From Patescibacteria group bacterium (GTDB lineage: Bacteria > Patescibacteriota > Minisyncoccia > Phycocordibacterales > UBA9973): DNA of 64,000 nt. Positions within the stretch are counted from its first letter, which is position 1; each line of letters starts with the position of its first letter. Of this stretch, positions 55,220 through 64,000 are shown in pieces. The notes beneath the pieces are model-generated. The model did not search any database and was not told the DNA's origin. It saw only the letters and a program-made list of their open reading frames with translations. The stretch lies in the NCBI GenBank assembly GCA_038063535.1, contig JBBTUV010000002.1, forward strand, positions 4,723-68,722, read 5' to 3'. A program made the translations under genes and the position numbers.

Positions 55220-55945
55220 ATGACGTTGCTGGCAATATCTTTCGTTGCCGGAGCGCTCACAGTGCTTGCGCCCTGTATCTTGCCGCTTCTTCCGGTCATT
55301 CTCGGCACTTCCGCAGCCGGGAGGAGTCGCGCCACGCCATACGTAGTGGTCGGGTCGCTCGCGCTCTCTATTATCTTCTTCACCTACCTACTTAAGGCAA
55401 CCACCGCCCTCATCATGGTTCCGCCGGAATTCTGGACATACCTATCCGGCGGAATTTTGTTACTCTTCGGACTTACCCTGCTTTTCCCCGGCCTATGGGA
55501 GAACCTGCCGGGGCTGGCTCGACTGTCATCGGGATCGAACAAGCTTCTGGGTGAAGGTTATCAGAAGAAAACCCTCTGGGGCGACGCGCTGGTCGGCGCC
55601 GCGCTCGGCCCGATTTTCTCAACCTGCTCGCCAACTTACTTCGTCATTTTGGCTTCGGTCCTCCCGGCAAGTTTTTTCCTGGGGAGCGTTTACCTTCTCG
55701 CCTATGTCCTCGGTCTCTCCCTGGTCCTTCTCTTAATCGCGAAGCTCGGCGAGCACTTCGCAGGGAAACTCGCCGACATCTCCAATCCTAGGAGCTCTTT
55801 TAAGCGCGGGCTCGGCATTCTTTTTCTTCTCCTTGGAATTCTTATCGCGACCGGCTACGAGAAGAAGCTGGAGACGAAGATTCTCGATAGTGGCTACTTC
55901 GATATCACAAAAATAGAAAATAAACTGCTTGAAGGTATCAAATAG
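55220..55945 (+). CDS. ccdA: Cytochrome c-type biogenesis / disulfide-bond reductant transporter CcdA (DsbD TM domain)
   Basis: TVLAPCILPLLPVILG and PIFSTCSPTYFVIL, the two conserved Cys-containing TM motifs of CcdA. Start adjacent to the thioredoxin gene stop. Confidence 0.7.
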   Translation: MTLLAISFVAGALTVLAPCILPLLPVILGTSAAGRSRATPYVVVGSLALSIIFFTYLLKATTALIMVPPEFWTYLSGGILLLFGLTLLFPGLWENLPGLARLSSGSNKLLGEGYQKKTLWGDALVGAALGPIFSTCSPTYFVILASVLPASFFLGSVYLLAYVLGLSLVLLLIAKLGEHFAGKLADISNPRSSFKRGLGILFLLLGILIATGYEKKLETKILDSGYFDITKIENKLLEGIK

Positions 55946-56097
55946 GTATTGGGCTCCCAATGCTGGATGCGTTCAGAACCCTAGATTGGACCAACATTAA
56001 GGAAGAACTGCAATTCAGCAATATTCTTGATTGGAAACAACTAGCCCCTAGTTTAGCGTAAAAACTTGATTATGGCTAGGTTGAATCCGAATCGTAA

Positions 56098-56126
56098 TTG
56101 AATAAAAAATAAGATTAAGTTATAAT
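56098..56126 (+). promoter_or_regulatory. Candidate promoter TTGAAT-N17-TATAAT upstream of tRNA-Ile
   Basis: aaTTGAATaaaaaataagattaagtTATAATgcc, about 85 nt upstream of the tRNA. Confidence 0.35.
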
Positions 56127-56210
56127 GCCACTAATGAAAGTCCGAGAATTAAAAGGAATAAAGGGTTTCAATCCCATTATCTAGGGAGTTTTATACTCCC
56201 GCCTTTTTAT

Positions 56211-56283
56211 AGTCGGATAGCTCAGCTAGTAGAGCATTCCCCTGATACGGGAACGGTCGCAGGTGCAAATCCTGCTCCGACTA
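56211..56283 (+). tRNA. tRNA-Ile (anticodon GAU), no encoded CCA
   Basis: Manual cloverleaf: acceptor AGUCGGA/UCCGACU, D-arm GCUC-AGCUAGUA-GAGC, anticodon arm UUCCC-CUGAUAC-GGGAA, variable CGGUC, T-arm GCAGG-UGCAAAU-CCUGC, discriminator A. The T-loop has G at position 55. Confidence 0.75.
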
Positions 56284-56331
56284 CTAATATTCTTTTATAC
56301 TTACCACTCCAATGTTTATTCATACATAAAG

Positions 56332-56403
56332 TGCCCTTGAGAGGAATCGGACCTCTACCTTCTCGTTAGAACCAAGAAATTCTATCCATTAAACTACAAG
56401 GGC
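56332..56403 (-). tRNA. tRNA-Arg (anticodon UCU), no encoded CCA
   Basis: Reverse complement gcccttgtagtttaatggatagaatttcttggttctaacgagaaggtagaggtccgattcctctcaagggca. Perfect 7-bp acceptor stem, D-loop with GG, anticodon arm UCUUG-GUUCUAA-CGAGA, T-arm AGAGG-UCCGAUU-CCUCU. G at position 32 and C at position 55 are non-canonical. Confidence 0.65.
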
Positions 56404-56426
56404 AAAAAGAAAATCAAGAATGGATC

Positions 56427-56717
56427 TTAGTTTGCTCTTCTTCTCGTCATAATTATGGCAATAACTGGATTTGTGATTTTTTTAACTAATGCAATAATTA
56501 AGAAAAGATAGATGGGAATAGTTATTAGTAGATAGGTAAATGCTAAATCAGTTTTATCCTCGAATATTGATTTGATGTTGTATATAATTCCTCCTTCTGG
56601 ATATAGTGGCACTAAAACCAAGACATCAAGCACCCAAAAGGTAATCCAAATACCCGAAAGTATCCAATACCATTGTTTTACCTTCTTTATTATTTGGTCA
56701 TTTATCATATCTCTCAT
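56427..56717 (-). CDS. Small two- to three-TM membrane protein, hypothetical
   Basis: 96 aa: WYWILSGIWITFWVLDVLVLVPLY, LAFTYLLITIPIYLFLIIALV. Confidence 0.35.
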   Translation of the reverse strand: MRDMINDQIIKKVKQWYWILSGIWITFWVLDVLVLVPLYPEGGIIYNIKSIFEDKTDLAFTYLLITIPIYLFLIIALVKKITNPVIAIIMTRRRAN

Positions 56718-56899
56718 CTTACTACACTAGATTAAATAAAGTAAAGAATTGGGGGGGTATAAGGCAAATCCAAAAAATGAATTAGAAATGGTTAGACATT
56801 CCCGCACACACCTTAAAAATAAAGCCGGATTAGAACTAAAAAGGTATTAAATGGTATTGGTAGCTTGTTATGGAAAACATACCATACTATAATTAAGGT

Positions 56900-57370
56900 A
56901 TGAAAAAGAATCTTCAGTTATTGGCTTATCTAGCTAAAGGACATCCTGAAGCCTCTATTACTGTGCTAATTAAACTATGCTACTTAGCTGATTTAATTAG
57001 TCTTAAGAGATTTAAAAAGAAAATCTCAACTTTTGAATATATAAGATATTATTTCGGTCCTTTTGATCCTGAGGTTTACGGTGATTTAGAATCTTTAGTA
57101 AAGGATGGGGTTTTAATTGCAACACCCGAATATACGCAAAAGGGGGCTGAGGCAATTATTTATCATTTCAATGAGACAAAAGACTTGAACATTAAAGATA
57201 TATCAAAAGAGGATAAGGTTATTCTGGACGAGCTTTTAGAATCAGTCCGAGGTTATGGAGCAAAAACTCTTACGGAAATTACATATAATACCAAACCAAT
57301 GAAAGCTCTTGGGGCAACTCTTGGAGGTAATGAAAATCTAGGAAAGGAGCTTAATTTAACTACTGCTTAG
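56900..57370 (+). CDS. Panacea-domain (DUF4065, SocA-like) putative antitoxin
   Basis: LQLLAYLAKGHPEASITVLIKLCYLADLISLKRFKKKISTFEYIRYYFGPFDPEVY follows the DUF4065 pattern (KL.YLAD ... Y....YGPf...vY). Preceded by TATAAT and aagg. Confidence 0.55.
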   Translation: MKKNLQLLAYLAKGHPEASITVLIKLCYLADLISLKRFKKKISTFEYIRYYFGPFDPEVYGDLESLVKDGVLIATPEYTQKGAEAIIYHFNETKDLNIKDISKEDKVILDELLESVRGYGAKTLTEITYNTKPMKALGATLGGNENLGKELNLTTA

Positions 57371-57382
57371 TTGTATGCTGTT

Positions 57383-57898
57383 ATGGAAATGCCAGACGGC
57401 ATATTGTTAAAAAACATAAATTTACGTAATGCTTTTTTAGATAGAAAATCTATAGAAGCAAATACTGGCAAAATTAAAGCTAAATACAAGCTTTTGACAT
57501 TTAAGGATCTTATACTTAGAGATCTTGGGGTTTTTGTTTTTCATATATTGACCACGGGCAAGGACTCATATATAAAAGAAAAAACGATGGATATTTTTCT
57601 TGCGGACTGGGAATATAGGGATGGGACACATTTAAATTCGGAATGTTCTAAGTTATGTAGTCAAAAAGTGGATATTATAAATAAAGAGGTATTACTAGAA
57701 AAAATCCGAGATACAAATAATAGATTTCCGCATACTGGCACACTTAGTCAAATAAAATTTAATGAGATTTTAAAATTCATTAGAGAAGATTTTGAGAAAA
57801 CAGATTTAAAAACGGATTTTGATGTAAAAGAGATTATTAACTCTATGTTTGACAAGAAGCAAGTGGCAAAAAATATTCTTGATAAGTTTGGGCTATAG
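57383..57898 (+). CDS. Uncharacterised 171-aa protein immediately downstream of the Panacea gene; candidate toxin partner (PanT-like)
   Basis: Starts 12 nt after the Panacea gene stop and is co-oriented. No recognisable motif. No TM. Confidence 0.4.
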   Translation: MEMPDGILLKNINLRNAFLDRKSIEANTGKIKAKYKLLTFKDLILRDLGVFVFHILTTGKDSYIKEKTMDIFLADWEYRDGTHLNSECSKLCSQKVDIINKEVLLEKIRDTNNRFPHTGTLSQIKFNEILKFIREDFEKTDLKTDFDVKEIINSMFDKKQVAKNILDKFGL

Positions 57899-58024
57899 TT
57901 CTTTCCAAATTTCAAAGGCTTCGGCTGGATCAAGATCCCATTCTTCAGCAAAAGCTTGAAGCTCCTTTGCTTCTTCAGGGCTTAGGTCGTTGTCTTTTGC
58001 TATCTCAAATGTTTCCTCATCCAT
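57893..58024 (-). CDS. Tiny acidic ORF (43 aa), hypothetical
   Basis: Reverse-complement translation MDEETFEIAKDNDLSPEEAKELQAFAEEWDLDPAEAFEIWKEL. Begins 2 nt after the stop of the 35-aa membrane ORF. Below the ORF-track size cutoff. Weak. Confidence 0.2.
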   Translation of the reverse strand: MDEETFEIAKDNDLSPEEAKELQAFAEEWDLDPAEAFEIWKEL

Positions 58025-58026
58025 AT

Positions 58027-58134
58027 CTAATTACTAAATTTCTCTAATAAAAAAACAATTAAAATAAGAAGTCCGGCTATTAGCCAAAACTTGGGGTCTT
58101 TATAATTCTTTGTGTCAAATCCCTTATATCTCAT
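58027..58134 (-). CDS. Tiny membrane peptide ORF (35 aa), hypothetical
   Basis: Reverse-complement translation MRYKGFDTKNYKDPKFWLIAGLLILIVFLLEKFSN. Lies about 30 nt downstream of res. Weak. Confidence 0.2.
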   Translation of the reverse strand: MRYKGFDTKNYKDPKFWLIAGLLILIVFLLEKFSN

Positions 58135-58164
58135 AACATCTTTTAATGCTTTTTATAATTTTCT

Positions 58165-60474
58165 CTATAAAGATTTCCATTTCCCATTTTCATAATCATA
58201 TTTTTTATCTTGGTTTAATGTCCAAATTCTGTTTTCATTATCTGATTTAGATATACCACCAAATAGTCTGTCTGCCTTATTTTCTTTAATATAGACCTGT
58301 AGTGCCTCAGCTTTCAATTTAGTATCACTGCTTGTAGCTGTTTGCCCTCCCTTAGTATCAAAAATGCCCGTCCTGCCGTCTTTGTAGTGGACAATGAAGT
58401 CTGCGTAGAAAGTGGCAGGTTTTTCCTTTTCGTCATTGTAGGGTATGCCTAGATATATTTCATTTTTAGCATCTCCATTTTTAAACCACCAAGCAATATT
58501 TTTGTTCTTCTCAAGATAGTTTTCAATAAAACCCATTTCAGTTTTCCATTTAGGGGACACATAGGTTGGGACCATTACACACCGCTTATAATTTTTTACA
58601 ACGGTATTTTTAGAGTAGTAATCTTCTTTAGGAACGTTCCATTTAGGTATTTCTTTATATTTCTTTTCTACCTTGCCTCTATATTTTGCGTATTTTTTTA
58701 TAGAATCCTGAATTATACTTTGAGAAAACCCCATATTAGTTAAAATAACTTTCTGAACATAAAGTTTGTCTATACTTTTAATTCCAAGATATTTTTCAAA
58801 AATCTGATATATTGCAACTCGTATTTTATCAAAGGATCTTGCTTGTTGGAACTCACCACAATTCTTCTTGAGAAAAGCAATAAACTTTCGTTCTACTTCT
58901 TCATCATCCATTTTTACTTTGTTTTTTTCTTCTGCCTTTATATTTTGATTTTCTTTATCTATGTCTTTTATAAGACCGTCAACGATCATTTTTTCTTCAA
59001 TTCTTTTAATATCAAGGAGCAGGCTAGTTCCGTCAGCACTCTTAAACTTTTTTAAAAGATTAAGGTTATTTCTTGCTTCTTTTTCATTTAACTTACCGCC
59101 AATTTTGTCTATAAATTCATCAAAGAAGTATTTTCTATAATCAAGCATAAGGTCATTGTATTCACCTCGCATAAGATAGACCGACTTTAGATCAATGTCT
59201 TTGTAGGACTTTATCCTTATTGCTTTTTTAACCTTAAGATATTCTAAGGCATCTTCTTCAATTTTAATTTCTTCAAGATTTGCATAGACATAAGCACGAT
59301 TTAAATCTTCTTCCTTGTAATGTTTAAACTCTGGCATTCTCATAATTCTACCGACTGTCTGTATTTCAAATATCTCACTCTTAGTCTGTCTAAATTTAAC
59401 TAATATGTGGGCTCTAGGACAATCCCAGCCAGTAGCTACAACTTGTTTAAAAATAAGAAAATCAACCCTACTGTTTAGTTTTTTAATATCTTCTAAATTT
59501 TCTTTATCATCACCTGTTAGCCATCGGGCAAGATTTTTATTCTTATAACTAAAACCCCTTTCGTCTAAGAATTTTTCAACCCAATCTCTTTTTTGTTTAT
59601 CTAAGGCACTTAGTTTTTCTCCTTCGTTTGGTAATTGGACAAGGACTAAAGGTCTTATTTTTGAACCCTCTTTTTTGTATAGTTTCTCTAATTCTTCTCG
59701 TTTTTTTAGTGCTTCTTCAAATATAATCTGATCACCACTTTTCTCACTTTTAAGGTCCTTAGACTTAATCTCAGGGTTAATAATAACCTCCTTTTTTATC
59801 ATCTGTGCATCTTTTACGGTCTGTAATTCAACATATTCTCCCTCTCTATCCCCATAAACATAACCACCGCCAATTTTGGGCGTTGCAGTCATATCTATTT
59901 GAAGGGCTGGTTTAATTATTTCCTCTATGATCTGAATCGTATTCGGTGTAATATTTAGATGACTTTCATCTACAATAAGGACAACTTTTCTGCCTTCGTC
60001 TTGAGTATTTTCACAAAACTTTCTAAGGTTTTTATCATACTCATTATCTTTCATAAATTTATTTATTGGATCACCTTTCTTTATGTCTTTGTCAGGATTG
60101 TCCTTTCCAGCCTTTGAAAAAATTTGCTCCCAGTTTATAAAAAGAACTTCATTTTCTTTTATTTCATTATCAAGAATATCCTCCAAAAATGACATCACTA
60201 TACCACCGCCTCCGATATTCTCTTCAAGACTATCTTTGCTTTGCTCTGCTAAAACACCTTTTGAAATCCATACGAAAGATAAATTGGACTCGCTCTCAAG
60301 GGCTAAGCGTTCAATGATACCAGACATCATAACTGTCTTACCCGATCCAGTCGGGGATCTGAAAAGAATCTTTTTAAAATTTACACCATCAAAAGACTTC
60401 AGAAACTTGTCTGCTTGTTCATAAATATTATCTACTGTTTCCTGTTGATATTTTTTAAAAGAAATGTTGTTCAT
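58165..60474 (-). CDS. res: Type III restriction enzyme Res subunit (SF2 helicase-nuclease)
   Basis: Walker A FRSPTGSGKTVMM, motif II VLIVDESH, helicase motif VATGWDCPR. Immediately downstream of, and translationally coupled to, the mod gene. Confidence 0.7.
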   Translation of the reverse strand: MNNISFKKYQQETVDNIYEQADKFLKSFDGVNFKKILFRSPTGSGKTVMMSGIIERLALESESNLSFVWISKGVLAEQSKDSLEENIGGGGIVMSFLEDILDNEIKENEVLFINWEQIFSKAGKDNPDKDIKKGDPINKFMKDNEYDKNLRKFCENTQDEGRKVVLIVDESHLNITPNTIQIIEEIIKPALQIDMTATPKIGGGYVYGDREGEYVELQTVKDAQMIKKEVIINPEIKSKDLKSEKSGDQIIFEEALKKREELEKLYKKEGSKIRPLVLVQLPNEGEKLSALDKQKRDWVEKFLDERGFSYKNKNLARWLTGDDKENLEDIKKLNSRVDFLIFKQVVATGWDCPRAHILVKFRQTKSEIFEIQTVGRIMRMPEFKHYKEEDLNRAYVYANLEEIKIEEDALEYLKVKKAIRIKSYKDIDLKSVYLMRGEYNDLMLDYRKYFFDEFIDKIGGKLNEKEARNNLNLLKKFKSADGTSLLLDIKRIEEKMIVDGLIKDIDKENQNIKAEEKNKVKMDDEEVERKFIAFLKKNCGEFQQARSFDKIRVAIYQIFEKYLGIKSIDKLYVQKVILTNMGFSQSIIQDSIKKYAKYRGKVEKKYKEIPKWNVPKEDYYSKNTVVKNYKRCVMVPTYVSPKWKTEMGFIENYLEKNKNIAWWFKNGDAKNEIYLGIPYNDEKEKPATFYADFIVHYKDGRTGIFDTKGGQTATSSDTKLKAEALQVYIKENKADRLFGGISKSDNENRIWTLNQDKKYDYENGKWKSL

Positions 60475-60476
60475 AT

Positions 60477-62189
60477 TTAAAAATTAAATATTGTTTTGTA
60501 AGTTTCTAATATCTTTTCTGGTATTGCTTCAATGGTAAATTTAATACCCAAATCCCCAAACTCTTCTTTGGAAAAGTCTTTTGCATACGAAAAAACATAA
60601 ACAGATACTGGTTTATCCTTCAATTTCTTTAATTGTTCAATAAAATCTTCAAAATAGAAAAGGTCAAAAAGTATAGCTGTATATCTGTTTTGACTTTGAA
60701 AAACCTTAATCCTGTTTTTCTTATAGCTATCTCCAACTAAATTAAAAGAGCCTTCTTTGAGGCAAAGAATTTCTGTTGATCCATCAACTATCTTATGCTT
60801 CAAATAATCAATAGATTTTTCCAGCTTAACAAAGTCAGTTTTAAGATATTTTAAATTACCCCCCAATCCTTTAATCTTCTTATTTTCTAAGTTTTTATAT
60901 CCCATTGAAACTTTTTTAATTCTCTCATAGGTAATATTTTCACAGAGCTTGTTTTCATTGTTTGTGCAAAGAATAAATTTACGATTGCCATTATCTTCTT
61001 TGTTTAAGCTTAAAACAGATTGACCGGTTGTCCCTGAGCCAGCAAAAAAATCTAAAATCGTTGATTCTGTATTAGTGGCAAGTTGAATAAGTGTCCTTAT
61101 CAAAATTGATGGTTTAGGATTATCAAAAATATCCTCTTCATCATTACCTATATTAAAAATATCTCGTAGTTCCTTTTTTCCTTCTGTGGTTGTTCCTTTG
61201 TTAAGAAAAACAGAATACGGGGTTATATTTCTTTCCTCGTTTATGAATATTTTTATTGACGGAACGGCATCACCCTTTTTGCCCCAATAAATTCTATTAT
61301 CTTTGTCCAATTCTAAAAACTCTTCTTGAGAGACATTAAATTGTCTTTTGAATTTTTTACCTGACGGTGATTTAACTGTATAATAATTTTCGTGATTTAT
61401 ATCTGACGCACCTTCTTTATTTGATATACTACCTGCTTTGTATGGACCTCTTTTATCATTATCAGGATTGCCATATTCATTTTGAAAATTTGGCATTTCC
61501 CTTATTTTATTTAAAACTTGACTCCTTTTAAAAACTACAAGGATATATTCGTGGTCTTTTCTAAAGCTTGTTGTGTTTTTCATTTTCCCATCCCGCCCAT
61601 CACCACTTTTTCTCCAAACAATCACATCCGATTGATTTTGACCAAAGATCTCTTCAATAAGGATTTTCAAACCAGCAAACTCATTGTCGTCTATTGAAAT
61701 AAACATTACTCCGTTTTTTGAAAGAAGGCTTTTCGCCAACTTCAATCTTTTTGACATAAAGGATAACCATTTACTATGTCTATATCTATCTTCTTTATCA
61801 ACATAATGGTCATTGTATGTAAAATCTTTACTACCGGTGTTGTATGGCGGATCAATATAAATAGCATCAACTTTATTTTTATGGGTATATGAAAGCACCG
61901 AAAGAGAATGATAGTTATCCCCCTCAATTAAAATATTAAAATCCTCATTTTTATCGGTAATAATATCAGGATAGTTATTTCCTTTTTCTCGTAAAATCGG
62001 CAAGGCATCTTTACTATCTTTATCAAATTTTTCAATTTTATTCTCCCAAACAAGCCCGTATCTTTTACGGTCTTTTAGTTTTTTTATTTTAAGCTCAAGA
62101 TTTGAAATGCGATCAAGAAGCTCTTTTTCTTTCGTATCAGTTTCCTTTGTCATAGGCACCCCTGAGGTGCCTAAAAACAAAATAGGCAT
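60477..62189 (-). CDS. mod: Type III R-M Mod subunit, N6-adenine DNA methyltransferase (beta class)
   Basis: Motif IV IYIDPPYNTG precedes motif I ILDFFAGSGTTGQS, the beta-class order. N-terminal coiled coil. About 570 aa. Confidence 0.8.
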   Translation of the reverse strand: MPILFLGTSGVPMTKETDTKEKELLDRISNLELKIKKLKDRKRYGLVWENKIEKFDKDSKDALPILREKGNNYPDIITDKNEDFNILIEGDNYHSLSVLSYTHKNKVDAIYIDPPYNTGSKDFTYNDHYVDKEDRYRHSKWLSFMSKRLKLAKSLLSKNGVMFISIDDNEFAGLKILIEEIFGQNQSDVIVWRKSGDGRDGKMKNTTSFRKDHEYILVVFKRSQVLNKIREMPNFQNEYGNPDNDKRGPYKAGSISNKEGASDINHENYYTVKSPSGKKFKRQFNVSQEEFLELDKDNRIYWGKKGDAVPSIKIFINEERNITPYSVFLNKGTTTEGKKELRDIFNIGNDEEDIFDNPKPSILIRTLIQLATNTESTILDFFAGSGTTGQSVLSLNKEDNGNRKFILCTNNENKLCENITYERIKKVSMGYKNLENKKIKGLGGNLKYLKTDFVKLEKSIDYLKHKIVDGSTEILCLKEGSFNLVGDSYKKNRIKVFQSQNRYTAILFDLFYFEDFIEQLKKLKDKPVSVYVFSYAKDFSKEEFGDLGIKFTIEAIPEKILETYKTIFNF

Positions 62190-62194
62190 CTCAA

Positions 62195-62330
62195 CATAAG
62201 ATGCCGACAGAACAACAGCTTACGCCATCAATTCTGCTATCTTAGAGGTTAAGATGCCCATTCTGGGCAGAATTGACGGCAAAAAGCTGATTTTCCTTTT
62301 ATATAAACTATTATCCTGTCGGCAATTCAA
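62195..62330. promoter_or_regulatory. Nested inverted-repeat structure (A-B-B'-A') in the divergent region upstream of mod-res
   Basis: A gatgccgacag (62197) pairs with ctgtcggcaa (about 62316). B gccatcaattctgc pairs with gcagaattgacggc (13/14). Read directly from the sequence. Confidence 0.45.
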
Positions 62331-62379
62331 ATATAACAAATTTTGACAAAGTATGCCAATGTAAAGTAAAGTTAAGTAT

Positions 62380-63180
62380 ATGAGCAAAAAGGCAAAGGAT
62401 GATTTTGGTCCGATTGATCCAAAATTTGACCCTGAAAAATACTATGACGAAAATATTAAGCCTTATATGGAAAGCAAGGGCGTGGCAAAAATGTGGAATT
62501 ACTTTATGGAAATTACAAAGACCGATTATTTCCAAAATTTTATAAAAGAAATTAGAGCGAAATATGGTATACCTGAAAACGGCTTTAAAATGCACGATGA
62601 AAAAATCGGAATTCCGGCTGAAACAATTGTGCTTCCAAGAGAGAAAAATGACGAACTGAGAGAAGAAATAATAGAAAAAATTTGTAAAAAATATCAATTA
62701 CATTACTTTGATTTTTATGATGTTATAGAATTTTATATTTATTATAATATACTAAGACCCCTAAATGATGTCGGAGCGATGGGACTATTCAGGGTTTCAG
62801 ATGTTATAGATGAAAAAGAAGAGCCATTTGGAAAGCTTTTTCAAGATAGTGATGATATGGCATACCCTATTGCCATTCGTATAAGTCCATATGCCAGCCA
62901 AAGAGACCTTATTGATTTTATTGAAAATAAAGTAGTTTGGAAAAACAGTATTAAATTTTTACAGAATAAATACAGGAAAGATAATATAAAGATTGGTAAG
63001 ATAAAAAATAAAAAGCAGTCAGTTCAAGAAAGAAATGATTTTATATGGCAAAACCGGCATTTACCCCGCAAGCAAATAATGAGCTTAATAACTGATAAAT
63101 TCGGCTATGATCGGACTGTAGATTATGGCTATATTGGCAAGATAATTTCACTAGAAAAGAGAAAGAGAAAAGAACTGTAG
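62380..63180 (+). CDS. Hypothetical 266-aa protein in the defence island
   Basis: Clean ORF, Lys/Glu/Asp-rich, no recognised motif. Antisense ORF 62311..62697 rejected. Confidence 0.45.
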   Translation: MSKKAKDDFGPIDPKFDPEKYYDENIKPYMESKGVAKMWNYFMEITKTDYFQNFIKEIRAKYGIPENGFKMHDEKIGIPAETIVLPREKNDELREEIIEKICKKYQLHYFDFYDVIEFYIYYNILRPLNDVGAMGLFRVSDVIDEKEEPFGKLFQDSDDMAYPIAIRISPYASQRDLIDFIENKVVWKNSIKFLQNKYRKDNIKIGKIKNKKQSVQERNDFIWQNRHLPRKQIMSLITDKFGYDRTVDYGYIGKIISLEKRKRKEL

Positions 63181-63406
63181 GGCAGATTTTTTCTGCCCAG
63201 CAGTAAAATCTTATACTTCACTTGGCATAAAGAATATCCTGAAGACATCCTTCGGGATTTTTTATGTCAGAAGAAGCGAAAAAAAACACAAAAGAGCAGG
63301 AAAAATTTGAATCGGGGCAAAATCTGCTCGGCTTGTTTGCCATTCTTTTGGCGGTTGATAAGAGGATCAATCCACAAAATTATGAATTTCTTAACCAGCA
63401 AAAAGA

Positions 63407-64000
63407 AAATGATTGATACTGTCAAAATAAGAATACCGAGAGAAAAAATGAGAACTTTAGCCGGTGATCGCTTCGTAGGATGGGAGCTTGTAGGGCAAGA
63501 TGCCCGTAAATATAAAAGGTTAGCCAAAAACCCAACAGAAAGCCAGAAGAAAGAGGCATACTTCCCAAAACTATGGACCTATGCAAGATGGTTAGATGAA
63601 AAATATCAGTCGGTATATATAATCATTGAATTTTCTGTCCCGAAACTTCTTTTTCAAAATAGCTTGTATGAGGTTATAGAAAATGATTTCCGAGCAGTTA
63701 TTTTAGCTCTTAAAGAAAGATTGCAAGAAATGGGTGAAATTGTGTCTATTGAAACACTTGAAAATGCGGAAGTTATGTCGCTTCACGCCTCAAAAAACAT
63801 TATTTTAAAAGAATACATAGCCATCTCTATATTGAAAGAATTGAGGAAAATAAATATAAGCAAGAAGTTTCATTTAAGCGAGGAGCAGTTCAAAAATGGC
63901 GGACACATTTTGCATATATATACCGATGTTCATTCTATCGCTTTTTATGACAAGCTCTTTGAGCTGGATCAAGGTCCGACTAAGGCATTTGATAAGGACC
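63407..64000 (+). CDS. Hypothetical protein, N-terminal 198 aa (continues past the window end)
   Basis: Manual translation from ATG 63407: MIDTVKIRIPREKMRTLAGDRFVGWELVGQDARKYKRLAKNPTESQKKEAYFPKLWTYARWLDEKYQSVYIIIEFSVPKLLFQNSLYEVIENDF..., open to the end of the window. Absent from the ORF track because it is unterminated. No family recognised. Confidence 0.4.

What the first reader, a model, noticed from the sequence alone, without database searches (positions are those of the whole stretch)
56284..64000. AT-rich defence island inserted at a tRNA-Ile / tRNA-Arg(UCU) pair: type III R-M plus Panacea TA plus orphan genes
Immediately 3' of tRNA-Ile the composition switches to strongly AT-rich. The genes change to Lys/Ile/Asn-rich proteins of defence type:
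- a Panacea (DUF4065) antitoxin with an unknown partner
- a type III mod-res pair followed by two tiny ORFs
- two further unknown proteins, 62380..63180 and 63407 to the window end

tRNA-Arg(UCU) itself lies inside the AT-rich DNA. By the defence-island logic, the unknown genes flanked by R-M and TA modules are good candidates for uncharacterised anti-phage functions. The element's other boundary and any integrase must lie beyond the window.
Basis: partly seen in the sequence, partly recalled or inferred. Interest (0 to 1): 0.75.

Follow-up and report, generated by a model that had tools for sequence, protein, structure and literature searches.

The report
Small integrative defence-carrying element of CPR bacteria
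The AT-rich block is most of a 10.5-kb mobile element, one of a widespread and apparently undescribed family in ultra-small (CPR) bacteria, that inserts with a serine recombinase, probably copies itself by rolling-circle replication, and carries anti-phage systems and two tRNA genes as cargo.

Summary
The AT-rich block is real, foreign and carries defence genes. It is not an island inserted at the tRNA pair.

It is the first 8 kb of a 10.46-kb integrative element. The element runs from window 55952 to about 66416, which is 2.4 kb past the window end.

**Backbone.** At least 16 related elements in CPR/Patescibacteria contigs share this gene order:
- p266
- p50
- a 375-aa rolling-circle initiator with the Rep_trans fold
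- an excisionase-type HTH protein
- a large serine recombinase (LSR)

The two "orphan" genes proposed as new defence candidates are p266 (C-terminal HTH) and the Rep. Both are backbone, not cargo.

**Boundaries.** The left end is a GGCTCC core 7 bp after ccdA and 254 bp upstream of tRNA-Ile. Both tRNAs and a small membrane ORF sit in a 670-bp insert flanked by backbone DNA, so they are cargo. Relatives integrate at the 3' end of tRNA-Asn or tRNA-Glu.

**attP.** It lies inside the LSR reading frame. Integration detaches the last ~33 codons, which persist, still conserved, at the opposite end of the element.

**Cargo.** Here it is a type III R-M system and a Panacea toxin-antitoxin pair. Relatives carry type II or III R-M, SIR2-HerA, or a retron-type RT-protease.

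No empty site and no excised circle were found.

The parts
55952..55957 (.). attL core GGCTCC, the left end of the element, 7 bp after the ccdA/DsbD_2 stop codon at 55945
   Evidence: The same hexamer closes the element at the LSR 3' end (L001 14032-14037 = window 66411-66416). It does not occur anywhere in the 10.4 kb between. The same core is found at both junctions in most of the related elements examined, with variants such as TTGCTCC. The minimal shared core is CTCC (L021).
55951..56061 (+). Detached 3' end of the LSR reading frame: the P' arm of attP plus about 33 codons (..LPMLDAFRTLDWTNIKEELQFSNILDWKQLAPSLA*)
   Evidence: A homologous fragment lies at the left boundary of 11 other elements, on the LSR strand. 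Divergence peaks at the third codon position beyond the arm (0.49 against 0.28 and 0.26). Database ORFs join the LSR C-terminus and this tail in frame.
56080..56750 (.). A ~670-bp insert module inside the backbone, holding the two tRNAs and the 96-aa ORF
   Evidence: blastn: L001 3573-3700 matches L019 7877-8004 (81%), and L001 4372-4481 matches L019 8007-8117 (70%). The two flanks of the insert are therefore adjacent in L019.
56211..56284 (+). tRNA-Ile(GAU), cargo of the element
   Evidence: ARAGORN and Rfam, 66.5 bits. The T-loop is UGCAAAU (G at position 55), the D-loop lacks GG, and no CCA is encoded.
56331..56403 (-). tRNA-Arg(UCU), cargo of the element
   Evidence: ARAGORN and Rfam, 57.3 bits. 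The T-loop is UCCGAUU (C at position 55). AGA codons run at 25.4 per 1000 in element genes against 8.4 per 1000 in host ORFs.
56427..56717 (-). 96-aa ORF with hydrophobic stretches that read as membrane segments (not tested), cargo, function unknown
   Evidence: ORF and gene call. No Pfam, PADLOC, PHROG or NCBIfam hit.
56751..56860 (.). Conserved non-coding backbone segment, followed by a promoter-like site (56865-56893) ahead of panA
   Evidence: 70% identity to L019 8007-8117. TTGTTA-17-TATAAT consensus match. This is a consensus match only.
56900..57370 (+). PanA-type (SocA/Panacea, DUF4065) antitoxin candidate
   Evidence: Pfam PF13274 5.2e-14, above the cut-off. PADLOC PDC-M19A 5e-8.
57383..57898 (+). 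Partner of PanA (171 aa from the ATG; 175 aa from TTG at 57371): candidate toxin of unknown family
   Evidence: It abuts panA on the same strand. No hit in Pfam, PADLOC, PHROGs, NCBIfam or PDB sequences. It is unrelated to the PanA partners in L034 and L038.
57893..58134 (-). Two tiny ORFs (43 aa at 57893-58024; 35 aa at 58027-58134) downstream of res
   Evidence: Gene calls on all contigs of this population. Not scanned against any library; nothing known about them.
58165..60474 (-). Type III restriction subunit (Res, 769 aa)
   Evidence: Pfam ResIII 2.7e-20; PADLOC REase_III 2e-15. GSGKT and DESH helicase motifs and a C-terminal D..DTK motif are visible in the translation.
60477..62189 (-). 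Type III modification methyltransferase (Mod, 570 aa; 558 aa from an alternative start)
   Evidence: PADLOC MTase_III 7.3e-85; Pfam N6_N4_Mtase 3.8e-36. DPPY and FAGSGTT motifs are visible in the translation.
62380..63180 (+). p266: backbone protein with a C-terminal three-helix HTH and an N-terminal domain with no solved-structure match
63181..63263 (+). Two conserved hairpins between p266 and p50 (63181-63199; 63236-63258 followed by T5): terminator/attenuator or candidate replication origin
   Evidence: Terminator-like call. By eye, the stems appear kept through changes on both sides in other elements; this was not counted.
63264..63416 (+). p50: small backbone ORF overlapping the rep start; core ..QNLLGLFAILLAVDKRINPQNY..
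   Evidence: Conserved, on the same strand immediately upstream of Rep, in all but one of the 13 loci mapped (35-84% aa identity; absent from L022, which starts inside rep).
63409..64000 (+). Rep375: rolling-circle initiator/relaxase-type protein (first 197 of 375 codons; the ORF ends at 64536 in window numbering)

Best explanation
Window 55952-64000 is the left 8 kb of a 10.46-kb site-specifically integrated mobile element. It ends at window-numbered 66416, on the same contig.

How it works, with each step marked as shown or inferred:

1. Integration. A large serine recombinase at the far right end recombines an attP site with a chromosomal site at a GGCTCC core. The attP site lies inside the 3' end of the recombinase's own reading frame.
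   - Shown: both junctions, and the same junction structure in 12 elements.
   - Inferred: the catalysis itself.

2. Gene splitting. Integration splits the recombinase gene. The integrated copy ends in host-encoded codons. The native last ~33 codons remain at the opposite end of the element.
   - Shown: the position of the fragment, its conservation and its codon-position pattern.
   - Inferred: any functional consequence.

3. Excision. An excisionase-family HTH gene directly precedes the recombinase and probably acts as directionality factor or regulator. Inferred.

4. Replication or transfer. After excision the circle is probably copied, or nicked for transfer, by the 375-aa Rep_trans-fold protein. 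p50 and the HTH protein p266 would act as accessory or regulatory factors.
   - Shown: the fold and the invariant Tyr.
   - Inferred: the activity.

5. Cargo. The remaining genes are cargo:
   - a complete type III R-M system
   - a Panacea-type toxin-antitoxin pair
   - a small membrane ORF
   - two tRNA genes
   These benefit the host by restricting phage, stabilise the element as addiction modules, or both.

tRNA-Arg(UCU) fits the element's threefold excess of AGA codons over the 50%-GC host.

The low GC content points to recent import from a low-GC CPR donor. So do the 91-95% identical backbone modules in Nomurabacteria MAGs.
For: **Contig extension.** The window belongs to an 88.9-kb Hainich groundwater contig. 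Downstream of the window lie the rest of Rep375, a 55-aa ORF, an HTH_17 protein and a 509-aa LSR. The contig ends 125 bp after the LSR stop.
- LSR: Resolvase 4.7e-16, Recombinase 8.8e-13, Zn_ribbon_recom 6e-11, PHROG integrase 3e-66.
- HTH: TIGR01764 'excisionase family' at 41.1 bits against a cut-off of 28.8.

**Family.** The order [tail fragment]...p266-p50-Rep-HTH17-(cargo)-LSR recurs in 13 further loci. They come from Nomurabacteria, Paceibacterota, Moraniibacteriota, Parcubacteria and Saccharibacteria MAGs, in unrelated chromosomal contexts.

**Junctions.**
- The LSR genes are alignable up to ..TTGGCTCC and then diverge. They continue into tRNA-Asn(GTT) in 8 loci and tRNA-Glu(TTC) in 2.
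- At the other end the same core is followed by the conserved tail.
- P' arms have GGCTCC-N18-GAAC, while tRNA B' arms have N13. From my own knowledge of serine integrases, this 5-bp offset is what is described for attP against attB half-sites.

**Tail is coding.** Third-position divergence is 0.49 against 0.28 and 0.26. Nine database ORFs join the LSR C-terminus and the tail in frame. One of them sits at the junction of a tandem pair of elements in L038.

**tRNAs are internal.** Collinearity with L019 on both sides of a 670-bp insert.

**Foreignness.**
- GC 0.33 against 0.50.
- The closest ccdA relatives (76-77% identity) have a redoxin gene directly after ccdA and no island.
- Our LSR is 95% identical to that of L022, and our Rep 91% to that of L019.

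**Cargo in relatives.** Type III R-M in 9 further loci (10 counting ours), type II R-M in 2, SIR2+HerA, a retron-type RT-protease, PanA pairs in 2, and a faint HEPN hit in 1.
Against: - No empty site (attB) and no excised circle (attP) was recovered.
  - All 13-15 contigs of this population carry the element.
  - The two JGI metagenome scans and one IMG/VR scan, for the right flank and for a degenerate attP pattern, found nothing. The source data are ENA/Logan, which those scans do not cover.
- Only 173 bp of right flank are known.
  - Unlike most relatives it is not a tRNA.
  - It resembles a P' arm weakly: top 0.2% of a host null.
  - The true original target here is therefore unresolved, and the element may abut an old scar.
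- Rep375 itself has no Pfam, PHROG or NCBIfam hit. Equivalence of Y180 to the RepD catalytic Tyr was not checked residue by residue.
- Mobility, replication and defence activity are all inferred.
- The integrated LSR lacks its native tail and could be inactive.
Confidence: 0.82

Rival explanations
1. A defence island integrated at the 3' end of tRNA-Ile by a tyrosine-type integrase, with a tRNA-derived direct repeat at the far end. The unknown genes 62380-63180 and 63407-onward would be uncharacterised anti-phage genes.
For: AT-rich DNA, R-M and TA genes lie next to a tRNA whose 3' end faces the island. Relatives of this element do use tRNA 3' ends as targets.
Against: - The element's core and the detached LSR tail lie 254 bp upstream of tRNA-Ile. 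Backbone DNA flanks the tRNA module on both sides.
- No repeat of 12 nt or more of either tRNA occurs downstream.
- The integrase is a serine recombinase.
- The two unknown genes are conserved backbone in elements with entirely different cargo, and one has the Rep_trans fold.
Confidence: 0.05
2. A fixed, no longer mobile remnant. The element integrated once, and the truncated recombinase (native tail lost) cannot excise it. It now persists as a domesticated defence and tRNA island.
For: - Every contig of the population from several samples has it, and no empty site or circle was seen.
- Many decayed remnants of the family exist in other genomes.
- The right flank is atypical.
Against: - All backbone ORFs are intact and full length, including the catalytic ARVST motif of the LSR.
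- GC has not shifted towards the host value (0.33 against 0.50).
- Most integrated relatives have the same kind of truncated LSR, yet the family is clearly spreading between lineages: 91-95% identical modules sit in different CPR hosts.
Confidence: 0.1
3. A prophage or phage satellite, for example inovirus-like. Rep375 would be the gpII-type replication protein and p50 a small coat-like protein.
For: Weak Phage_CRI (G2P) hits in 7 of 43 Rep homologues. p50 is small with a hydrophobic core. The best structural match to p266 is a small-terminase HTH.
Against: - No morphogenesis, capsid, tail or Zot-type ATPase genes occur in any of 16 elements.
- No relative of Rep375 was found in IMG/VR, in INPHARED phages or in PLSDB plasmids.
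- The terminase match covers only a generic 51-residue HTH.
Confidence: 0.03

Closest known systems
Integrative and mobilizable elements (IMEs) of Firmicutes that encode a Rep_trans/MobT protein plus a site-specific integrase (reviewed in PMC5704250; PMC5357655; PMC7563843)
   Same: Both are small (about 5-20 kb). Both have an integration/excision module and a Rep_trans-type rolling-circle initiator or relaxase for maintenance or mobilisation of the excised circle. Both carry accessory cargo such as TA and R-M modules.
   Different: - The hosts here are CPR/Patescibacteria.
- Rep375 is too divergent to hit PF02486 itself.
- p266 and p50 have no counterpart I could find.
- According to that review, serine-recombinase IMEs usually insert within genes. 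This family mostly uses tRNA 3' ends.
- No coupling protein or oriT is evident, and the conjugative helpers such IMEs depend on are, to my knowledge, not typical of CPR genomes. That point was not tested.
Large-serine-recombinase elements such as SCCmec (CcrB/CcrC), the Anabaena fdxN element (XisF) and serine-integrase prophages
   Same: Three-domain LSR (Resolvase, Recombinase, Zn ribbon). Short att sites with a small common core and no long direct repeats. The best NCBIfam matches are CcrB (98 bits) and XisF (78 bits).
   Different: - Scores are far below those families' cut-offs (900 and 375 bits), so it is not a member of either.
- attP lies inside the recombinase ORF, so the gene's 3' end is exchanged on integration. 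I found no report of this for serine integrases in the searchable literature. That is absence of evidence only.
SSV1-type archaeal tyrosine integrases (attP within int; PMC8371274) and integration-dependent immunity of mycobacteriophage BPs (attP within the repressor gene; PMC4557955)
   Same: The attachment site lies inside a coding sequence of the element's own control gene. The integrated and excised states therefore encode different protein forms.
   Different: - Those are tyrosine-recombinase systems.
- In SSV1 the gene is split into two large parts. In BPs the repressor is truncated, not the integrase.
- Here only the last ~33 residues of a serine recombinase are swapped, and the consequence is unknown.
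pT181-family rolling-circle plasmid initiators (PDB 4cwc, 4cij)
   Different: 9-12% sequence identity. An extra ~120-residue helical C-terminal domain. The protein is encoded on an integrated element rather than a free plasmid. There are no tblastn relatives in PLSDB.
Mobile defence islands and satellites that shuttle anti-phage systems, such as P4-like satellites and defence hotspots in ICEs (from my own knowledge)
   Same: A conserved mobility backbone with a variable slot filled by different defence systems in different copies. Here the slot holds type II R-M, type III R-M, SIR2-HerA, a retron-type RT-protease or a PanA TA pair.
   Different: The backbone is unrelated, the host phylum is different, and no helper phage or conjugative element has been identified.

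Membership tests
Large serine recombinase (LSR) integrative element | Recombinase with an N-terminal resolvase catalytic domain (Ser nucleophile), a recombinase domain and a zinc-ribbon domain | tested here: met
   PF00239 4.7e-16, PF07508 8.8e-13 and PF13408 6e-11, all above their cut-offs. PHROG_95 'integrase' 3e-66. The N-terminus reads MKAIILARVSTEDQ, with Ser10.
Large serine recombinase (LSR) integrative element | Element bounded by short att sites that share only a few-bp core, with the recombinase gene next to one end | tested here: met
   GGCTCC lies at 55952 and at window-numbered 66411, with none between. The LSR is the terminal gene. Eleven relatives show the same structure, most with the same core.
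Large serine recombinase (LSR) integrative element | An unoccupied attB and/or a circular attP junction can be demonstrated | tested here: inconclusive
   Neither was found for this element. Contiguous P-P' junctions exist only in tandem or remnant copies of relatives.
Large serine recombinase (LSR) integrative element | attP and attB half-sites differ in the spacing of the distal motif (about 5 bp) | tested here: met
   P' arms have core-N18-GAAC and tRNA B' arms core-N13-GAAC. The right flank of this particular element has the P'-type spacing, which is atypical.
Rep_trans (PF02486) / G2P (PF05144) rolling-circle initiators, MobT relaxases | Significant match to the family profile | tested here: not met
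   Rep375 has 0 Pfam families even at E<=1. Only 7 (PF05144, best 1.4e-5) and 2 (PF02486, best 8e-4) of 43 homologues give weak hits. There are no PDB sequence hits with the family profile.
Rep_trans (PF02486) / G2P (PF05144) rolling-circle initiators, MobT relaxases | Rep_trans fold | tested here: met
Rep_trans (PF02486) / G2P (PF05144) rolling-circle initiators, MobT relaxases | Catalytic tyrosine and acidic metal ligands in the active site | tested here: inconclusive
   Y180, E74, E217, E222, R220 and R224 are invariant in 43 sequences. Their structural equivalence to the RepD active site was not checked.
Rep_trans (PF02486) / G2P (PF05144) rolling-circle initiators, MobT relaxases | Cognate origin (dso or oriT) with a nick site | not tested
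   Two conserved hairpins at 63181-63199 and 63236-63258 are candidates only.
Type III restriction-modification system | Mod: N6/N4 methyltransferase of type III architecture | tested here: met
   PADLOC MTase_III 7.3e-85 over residues 35-489. PF01555 3.8e-36. DPPY and FAGSGTT motifs.
Type III restriction-modification system | Res: SF2 helicase-type ATPase with a C-terminal nuclease, adjacent to mod and co-oriented with it | tested here: met
   PF04851 2.7e-20 and REase_III 2e-15. The mod stop at 60477 and the res start at 60474 are on the same strand.
Panacea (PanA) toxin-antitoxin pair | Antitoxin with the SocA/Panacea (DUF4065) domain | tested here: met
   PF13274 5.2e-14, 53.6 bits against a cut-off of 25.7.
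Panacea (PanA) toxin-antitoxin pair | Adjacent co-directional partner that is a toxin neutralised by PanA | not testable with these tools
   The partner ORF abuts panA (57371 or 57383). It has no family or PDB hit. Its toxicity is unknown.
   The boundary core and element-homologous DNA lie upstream of tRNA-Ile. The longest shared word between either tRNA and the downstream 10 kb is 9-11 nt.

The most novel reading that the evidence does not exclude
A serine integrase whose attachment site lies inside its own reading frame acts as a state sensor. The full-length enzyme, carrying the conserved ~33-residue tail WLPxLxxFRTLxWxxIKxELQFS, can be made only from the excised or tandem form. The integrated copy makes a tail-less enzyme with different activity, directionality or stability. 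That would be a new control logic for large serine recombinases.

It would operate in a CPR-wide family of about 8-16-kb elements that shuttle defence systems between ultra-small bacteria, possibly by natural DNA uptake and not by conjugation.
Probability: 0.3. Interest if true: 0.75.

Novelty: new variant of a known kind. Interest (0 to 1): 0.6.

Why it matters
CPR/Patescibacteria are thought to have few mobile elements and few defences, and how genes move between them is poorly understood. One paper I read reports genomic islands in these bacteria found by composition-based prediction, including one with a type I R-M system. It mentions no recombinase, integrase or tRNA target (PMC12455944).

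This locus defines a concrete and abundant element family:
- at least 181 Rep clusters and 752 p266 cluster representatives
- recognisable ends, a preferred target (the tRNA-Asn 3' end), a replication protein and a cargo slot that repeatedly holds anti-phage systems

That makes horizontal transfer of defence in CPR bacteria directly tractable. The family also supplies a set of natural serine integrases with predictable att sites.

The placement of attP inside the ORF is a testable new way of coupling integrase form to integration state.

It also warns against one use of 'guilt by association'. The unknown genes sitting between an R-M system and a TA module here are the vehicle, not the weapons.

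Tried and rejected
1. **Empty site through exact-protein look-up of ccdA.** All contexts carry the element or break inside it.
2. **Empty site through the closest ccdA homologues (76-77% identity).** Synteny is not conserved and a redoxin gene follows ccdA. This shows absence of the island but gives no attB.
3. **Extending the contig to the right.** Every contig with the LSR stops within 125 bp of its stop codon.
4. **Metagenome scan for the right flank, then metagenome and IMG/VR scans for a degenerate attP pattern.** All returned 0 hits. These collections do not hold the ENA/Logan source data.
5. **Right flank as a decayed tRNA-Asn.** Rejected: the local alignment score equals the shuffle mean, z = 0.2.
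6. **A second GCTCC..GAACCCT motif in the right flank as another scar.** It is not supported by the in-register PWM, z = -0.8.
7. **About 10-kb contigs (L002, L021, L026, L034, L035) as excised circles.** They have no terminal overlaps, and all show attL/attR-type ends.
8. **Search with the reconstructed LSR C-terminus plus tail.** It returned only short ORFs (remnants and tandem junctions) and no full-length tailed LSR. The word index appears to favour short proteins.
9. **p266 against Pfam and PDB by sequence.** Nothing consistent. By fold, only a generic HTH.
10. **Codon compensation for tRNA-Ile(GAU).** Not supported: ATT+ATC is 53 per 1000 in the element against 51 per 1000 in the host. 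The argument holds only for tRNA-Arg/AGA. The host ORF set was chosen greedily and may include spurious ORFs.
11. **Rep375 relatives in IMG/VR, PLSDB and INPHARED.** None.

Full report

Yes, with corrections.
- ARAGORN and Rfam find tRNA-Ile(GAU) at 56211-56284 (+) and tRNA-Arg(UCU) at 56331-56403 (-).
- GC is about 0.50 for 56 kb and then 0.30-0.35 to the window end. Measured over the segments, it is 0.503 against 0.332.
- At 100-bp resolution GC is already 0.30 at 56050-56199, upstream of tRNA-Ile.

The gene content is as described:
- A SocA_Panacea protein (56900-57370, Pfam 5.2e-14) with an abutting partner that has no family hit.
- A type III Mod (60477-62189, PADLOC MTase_III 7e-85) and Res (58165-60474, ResIII 2.7e-20) on the minus strand, followed by two tiny ORFs.
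- A 266-aa ORF with no hit (62380-63180).
- The last ORF is real, but it starts at 63409, not 63407. The 63407 frame is closed.

**2. Extending the sequence**

An exact-protein look-up of the 266-aa protein placed the window on an 88,940-bp Hainich groundwater contig, ERZ1292625. The host genes are typical of CPR/Patescibacteria. L001 coordinates plus 52379 give window numbering.

Beyond the window lie:
- the rest of the 375-aa ORF (to 64536)
- a 55-aa ORF
- a 59-aa HTH_17 protein, which meets the TIGR01764 'excisionase family' cut-off
- a 509-aa large serine recombinase overlapping its stop codon, at 64934-66463 (Resolvase, Recombinase, Zn_ribbon_recom; PHROG integrase 3e-66)

GC-rich DNA (0.56) resumes inside the last codons of that gene. 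The contig ends 125 bp after its stop.

**3. A family, not a one-off**

The 375-aa protein has at least 181 homologous clusters, all unannotated, from CPR MAGs and metagenomes. I fetched 13 further loci and mapped our proteins onto them. One order recurs:

[short 'tail' fragment] ... p266 - p50 - Rep375 - HTH_17 - (cargo) - LSR

The span is 8-16 kb. The loci come from Nomurabacteria, Paceibacterota, Moraniibacteriota, Parcubacteria and Saccharibacteria MAGs, in unrelated chromosomal contexts. The p266 family alone has 752 cluster representatives at E<=1e-3.

**4. The ends of the element**

The 3' ends of the LSR genes of ours and of L013 are nearly identical up to ..TTGGCTCC and then diverge.
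- In L012, L013, L019, L020, L023, L024, L029 and L035 the sequence runs straight into the 3' end of a minus-strand tRNA-Asn(GTT). L012 and L035 are cut by the contig end. L022 continues into a truncated copy.
- In L025 and L026 it runs into tRNA-Glu(TTC).

At the other end of each element the same core is followed by a conserved sequence that continues the LSR reading frame: W-L-P-x-L-x-x-F-R-T-L-(D/N)-W-x-x-I-K-x-E-L-Q-F-S....

In our window this is GGCTCC at 55952-55957, 7 bp after the ccdA stop, followed by ..LPMLDAFRTLDWTNIKEELQFSNILDWKQLAPSLA* (to 56061). GGCTCC occurs at both ends of the 10.46 kb and nowhere between.

In L021 the shared core shrinks to CTCC, which narrows the crossover.

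The P' arms carry core-N18-GAAC, while the tRNA B' arms carry core-N13-GAAC. From my own knowledge of serine-integrase att sites, a 5-bp outward shift of the distal motif in attP relative to attB is the established pattern. I did not verify this in a paper here.

**5. attP lies inside the recombinase ORF**

Three observations support this.
- The tail fragment sits in the LSR frame relative to the core in 12 elements.
- Beyond the DNA-binding arm (codons 13-23), pairwise divergence is 0.49 at third positions against 0.28 and 0.26 at first and second positions. This is the signature of selection on a protein. Within the arm the three positions are similar, as expected for a combined DNA-site and coding constraint.
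- Nine ORFs in the protein database join the LSR C-terminus and the tail in frame, for example ...RSPYNHILTFANQPNWLPLVDEFRTLNWTAIKQELQFSGIL....

One of these ORFs lies in L038 at the junction between a decayed element and a complete one arranged in tandem. That junction is an intact P-core-P' site. Another is a solitary scar in a host context (L036).

Integration therefore removes the last ~33 codons of the LSR and replaces them:
- with 2-3 tRNA-derived codons in most relatives (..WLRE*, ..WLRG*)
- with 14 flank-derived codons here (..WLPLYDEIRTHFEQNPD*)

Whether this changes enzyme behaviour is unknown.

**6. The tRNAs are cargo**

blastn against L019 shows two matches:
- L001 3573-3700 (window 55952-56079) aligns to L019 7877-8004 at 81%
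- L001 4372-4481 (window 56751-56860) aligns to L019 8007-8117 at 70%

The two segments are adjacent in L019. The 670 bp between them in our element (56080-56750) hold tRNA-Ile, tRNA-Arg and the 96-aa membrane ORF. No other family member has internal tRNAs. No repeat of either tRNA occurs downstream. 'Inserted at the tRNA pair' is therefore wrong.

On a rationale for the cargo:
- AGA makes up 56% of Arg codons in element genes (25.4 per 1000) against 19% (8.4 per 1000) in host ORFs. tRNA-Arg(UCU) fits this.
- The argument does not hold for tRNA-Ile(GAU).

Both tRNAs score well in Rfam but lack U55 in the T-loop.

**7. What the backbone proteins are**

*Rep375*
- It has no hit of its own in any profile library. 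Seven of 43 homologues touch Phage_CRI/G2P and two touch Rep_trans.
- An AlphaFold model built on 43 sequences is confident (pLDDT 91, pTM 0.89).
- Y180 and K182 are invariant and D181 is nearly so.
- I conclude that it works like a Rep_trans initiator or MobT relaxase. It fails the sequence-profile membership test, so I call it a divergent new branch of that fold.

*p266*
- It is a DNA-binding protein whose role is open: regulator, origin accessory or att accessory.

*p50*
- It is small, has a hydrophobic core and overlaps the rep start. In the closer relatives it is more conserved than Rep or p266.

*Intergenic hairpins*
- Two hairpins lie between p266 and p50, and by eye their stems appear kept through paired changes in other elements. 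They are either terminator/attenuator structures or the origin.

**8. Cargo and the 'defence island' idea**

The cargo really is defence-type.
- In our element the type III R-M sits in the left arm on the opposite strand.
- In nine relatives a different type III R-M (31-45% Mod identity) fills a slot between HTH_17 and the LSR.
- In L038 and L023 that slot holds type II R-M systems.
- L023 also carries SIR2 plus HerA.
- L026 carries a retron-type RT-protease (PADLOC 3e-169).
- L034 and L038 carry PanA pairs whose partners are unrelated to ours.
- L012 has a faint HEPN hit on one of two small left-arm ORFs.

The only uncharacterised cargo here is the PanA partner (57383-57898), the 96-aa membrane ORF and the two tiny ORFs.

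**9. Foreignness and history**

- The closest ccdA relatives (76-77% identity) have a redoxin gene directly after ccdA and no island. They are too distant to give an attB.
- Backbone modules are mosaic. Our LSR is 95% identical to that of a Nomurabacteria MAG (L022) whose Rep is only 57% identical. Our Rep is 91% identical to that of another Nomurabacteria MAG (L019) whose LSR is 69% identical.
- Together with GC 0.33 in a 0.50 host, this indicates recent transfer and recombination among elements.
- No relatives of Rep375 exist in IMG/VR, INPHARED phages or PLSDB plasmids. This argues against a phage or a known plasmid lineage.

**10. What remains unresolved**

- The right flank is not a tRNA. 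Like the right flank of L021, it resembles a P' arm in register (top 0.2% of a host null). It even translates to a tail-like ..LYDEIRT.. sequence.
- The simplest reading is that our element abuts an old scar of an earlier element, as seen explicitly in L038. With only 173 bp of flank this cannot be settled.
- No empty site and no circular form were found.
- Excision, replication, restriction and toxicity are all inferred.

**11. Comparison with known systems, and novelty**

In function it is closest to the Firmicute IMEs that combine an integrase with a Rep_trans/MobT protein and carry TA or R-M cargo (PMC5704250). It is also close to LSR-borne islands such as SCCmec. NCBIfam's best hit is CcrB at 98 bits against a cut-off of 900, so it is not a member.

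The attP-inside-a-gene arrangement parallels SSV1-type integrases (PMC8371274) and integration-dependent immunity in mycobacteriophage BPs (PMC4557955). Both are tyrosine-recombinase systems.

My literature searches found:
- no paper combining Patescibacteria, 'serine recombinase' and 'integrative'
- one paper on Patescibacteria genomic islands, which mentions no recombinase, integrase or tRNA target
- no report of a serine integrase whose attP lies in its own ORF

This is absence of evidence within a limited library.

I rate it a new variant of a known kind: an ordinary principle (an integrative element shuttling defence genes) in an unusual host group, with a divergent Rep, two new backbone proteins and an unusual att arrangement.

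**12. Verdict**

Interest is 0.6. The value lies in the element family and its split integrase gene, not in new defence genes.

Noticed in passing
window 56211-56284 and 56331-56403: Both element-borne tRNAs lack the near-universal U55 in the T-loop: UGCAAAU in tRNA-Ile and UCCGAUU in tRNA-Arg. tRNA-Ile also lacks the GG of the D-loop (AGCuAGUA). Neither encodes CCA, whereas the tRNA-Asn targets of related elements have canonical T-loops and an encoded CCA.
   Followed up: partly
proteins P0394-P0396, P0401, P0406, P0410; loci L036 3150-3670 and L038 9850-10420: Many independent LSR remnants start at the same point, just before ..ITKDDYDKKL (LSR residue 396, by position probably the coiled-coil region; not tested). 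Each is fused to a different unrelated upstream sequence. In L038 the partner is Rep residue ~135, possibly through a short shared word. In L036 another GGCTCC plus tail-like site lies 60 bp upstream. The recurrent breakpoint is unexplained.
   Followed up: partly
window 63181-63199 and 63236-63263: Two hairpins lie between the p266 stop and the p50 start: GGGCAGAtttttTCTGCCC, and ATCCTGAAGacatCCTTCGGGAT followed by T5. By eye, both stems appear kept through changes on both sides in other elements. They could be a terminator/attenuator or the Rep origin.
   Followed up: partly
L001 14032-14209 (window numbering 66411-66588); L021 9441-9480: In our element and in L021 the flank beyond attR is not a tRNA. 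It scores in the top 0.2% of host windows for the element's own P' arm and translates to a tail-like peptide (WLPLYDEIRT.., WLRLLDDVRT..). This suggests integration next to an old element scar or into a pseudo-attP-like site.
   Followed up: partly
L038 7335-17063: A tandem array. A decayed element (p266-like, small ORF, Rep N-terminus fused to the LSR C-terminus plus tail) is followed directly by a complete element carrying a PanA pair and a HindIII-like type II R-M system, ending at tRNA-Asn.
   Followed up: yes
L023 2102-4931 and 12040-16241; L026 3465-5234: Other family members carry SIR2+HerA, a type II R-M system (two D12-class methyltransferases plus an AlwI-like nuclease), and a retron-type RT-protease (PADLOC RT-Protease_XI 3e-169) as cargo.
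   Followed up: yes
L027 3775-4038, L028 9423-9698, L029 634-909: In the most distant family members an 87-91-aa ORF whose sequence recalls SpoVG (from memory; not scanned) sits just upstream of Rep. A large unrelated ORF (393-550 aa) in L027 and L028 replaces p266.
   Followed up: no
L021, L026 (MAGs labelled Gammaproteobacteria), L027 (Ignavibacteria), L034 (Woesearchaeota): Short contigs (6-10.5 kb) that are almost entirely this CPR-type element are binned into non-CPR MAGs. This is probably mis-binning caused by composition, but real occurrence outside CPR was not excluded.
   Followed up: no
window 60477-62189 and 56427-56717 versus L002, L003, L009, L010: Gene calls differ between contigs: Mod is called at 558 or 570 aa, and the membrane ORF at 93 or 96 aa. 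This may reflect small sequence differences within the population or only different start choices; the sequences were not compared.
   Followed up: no
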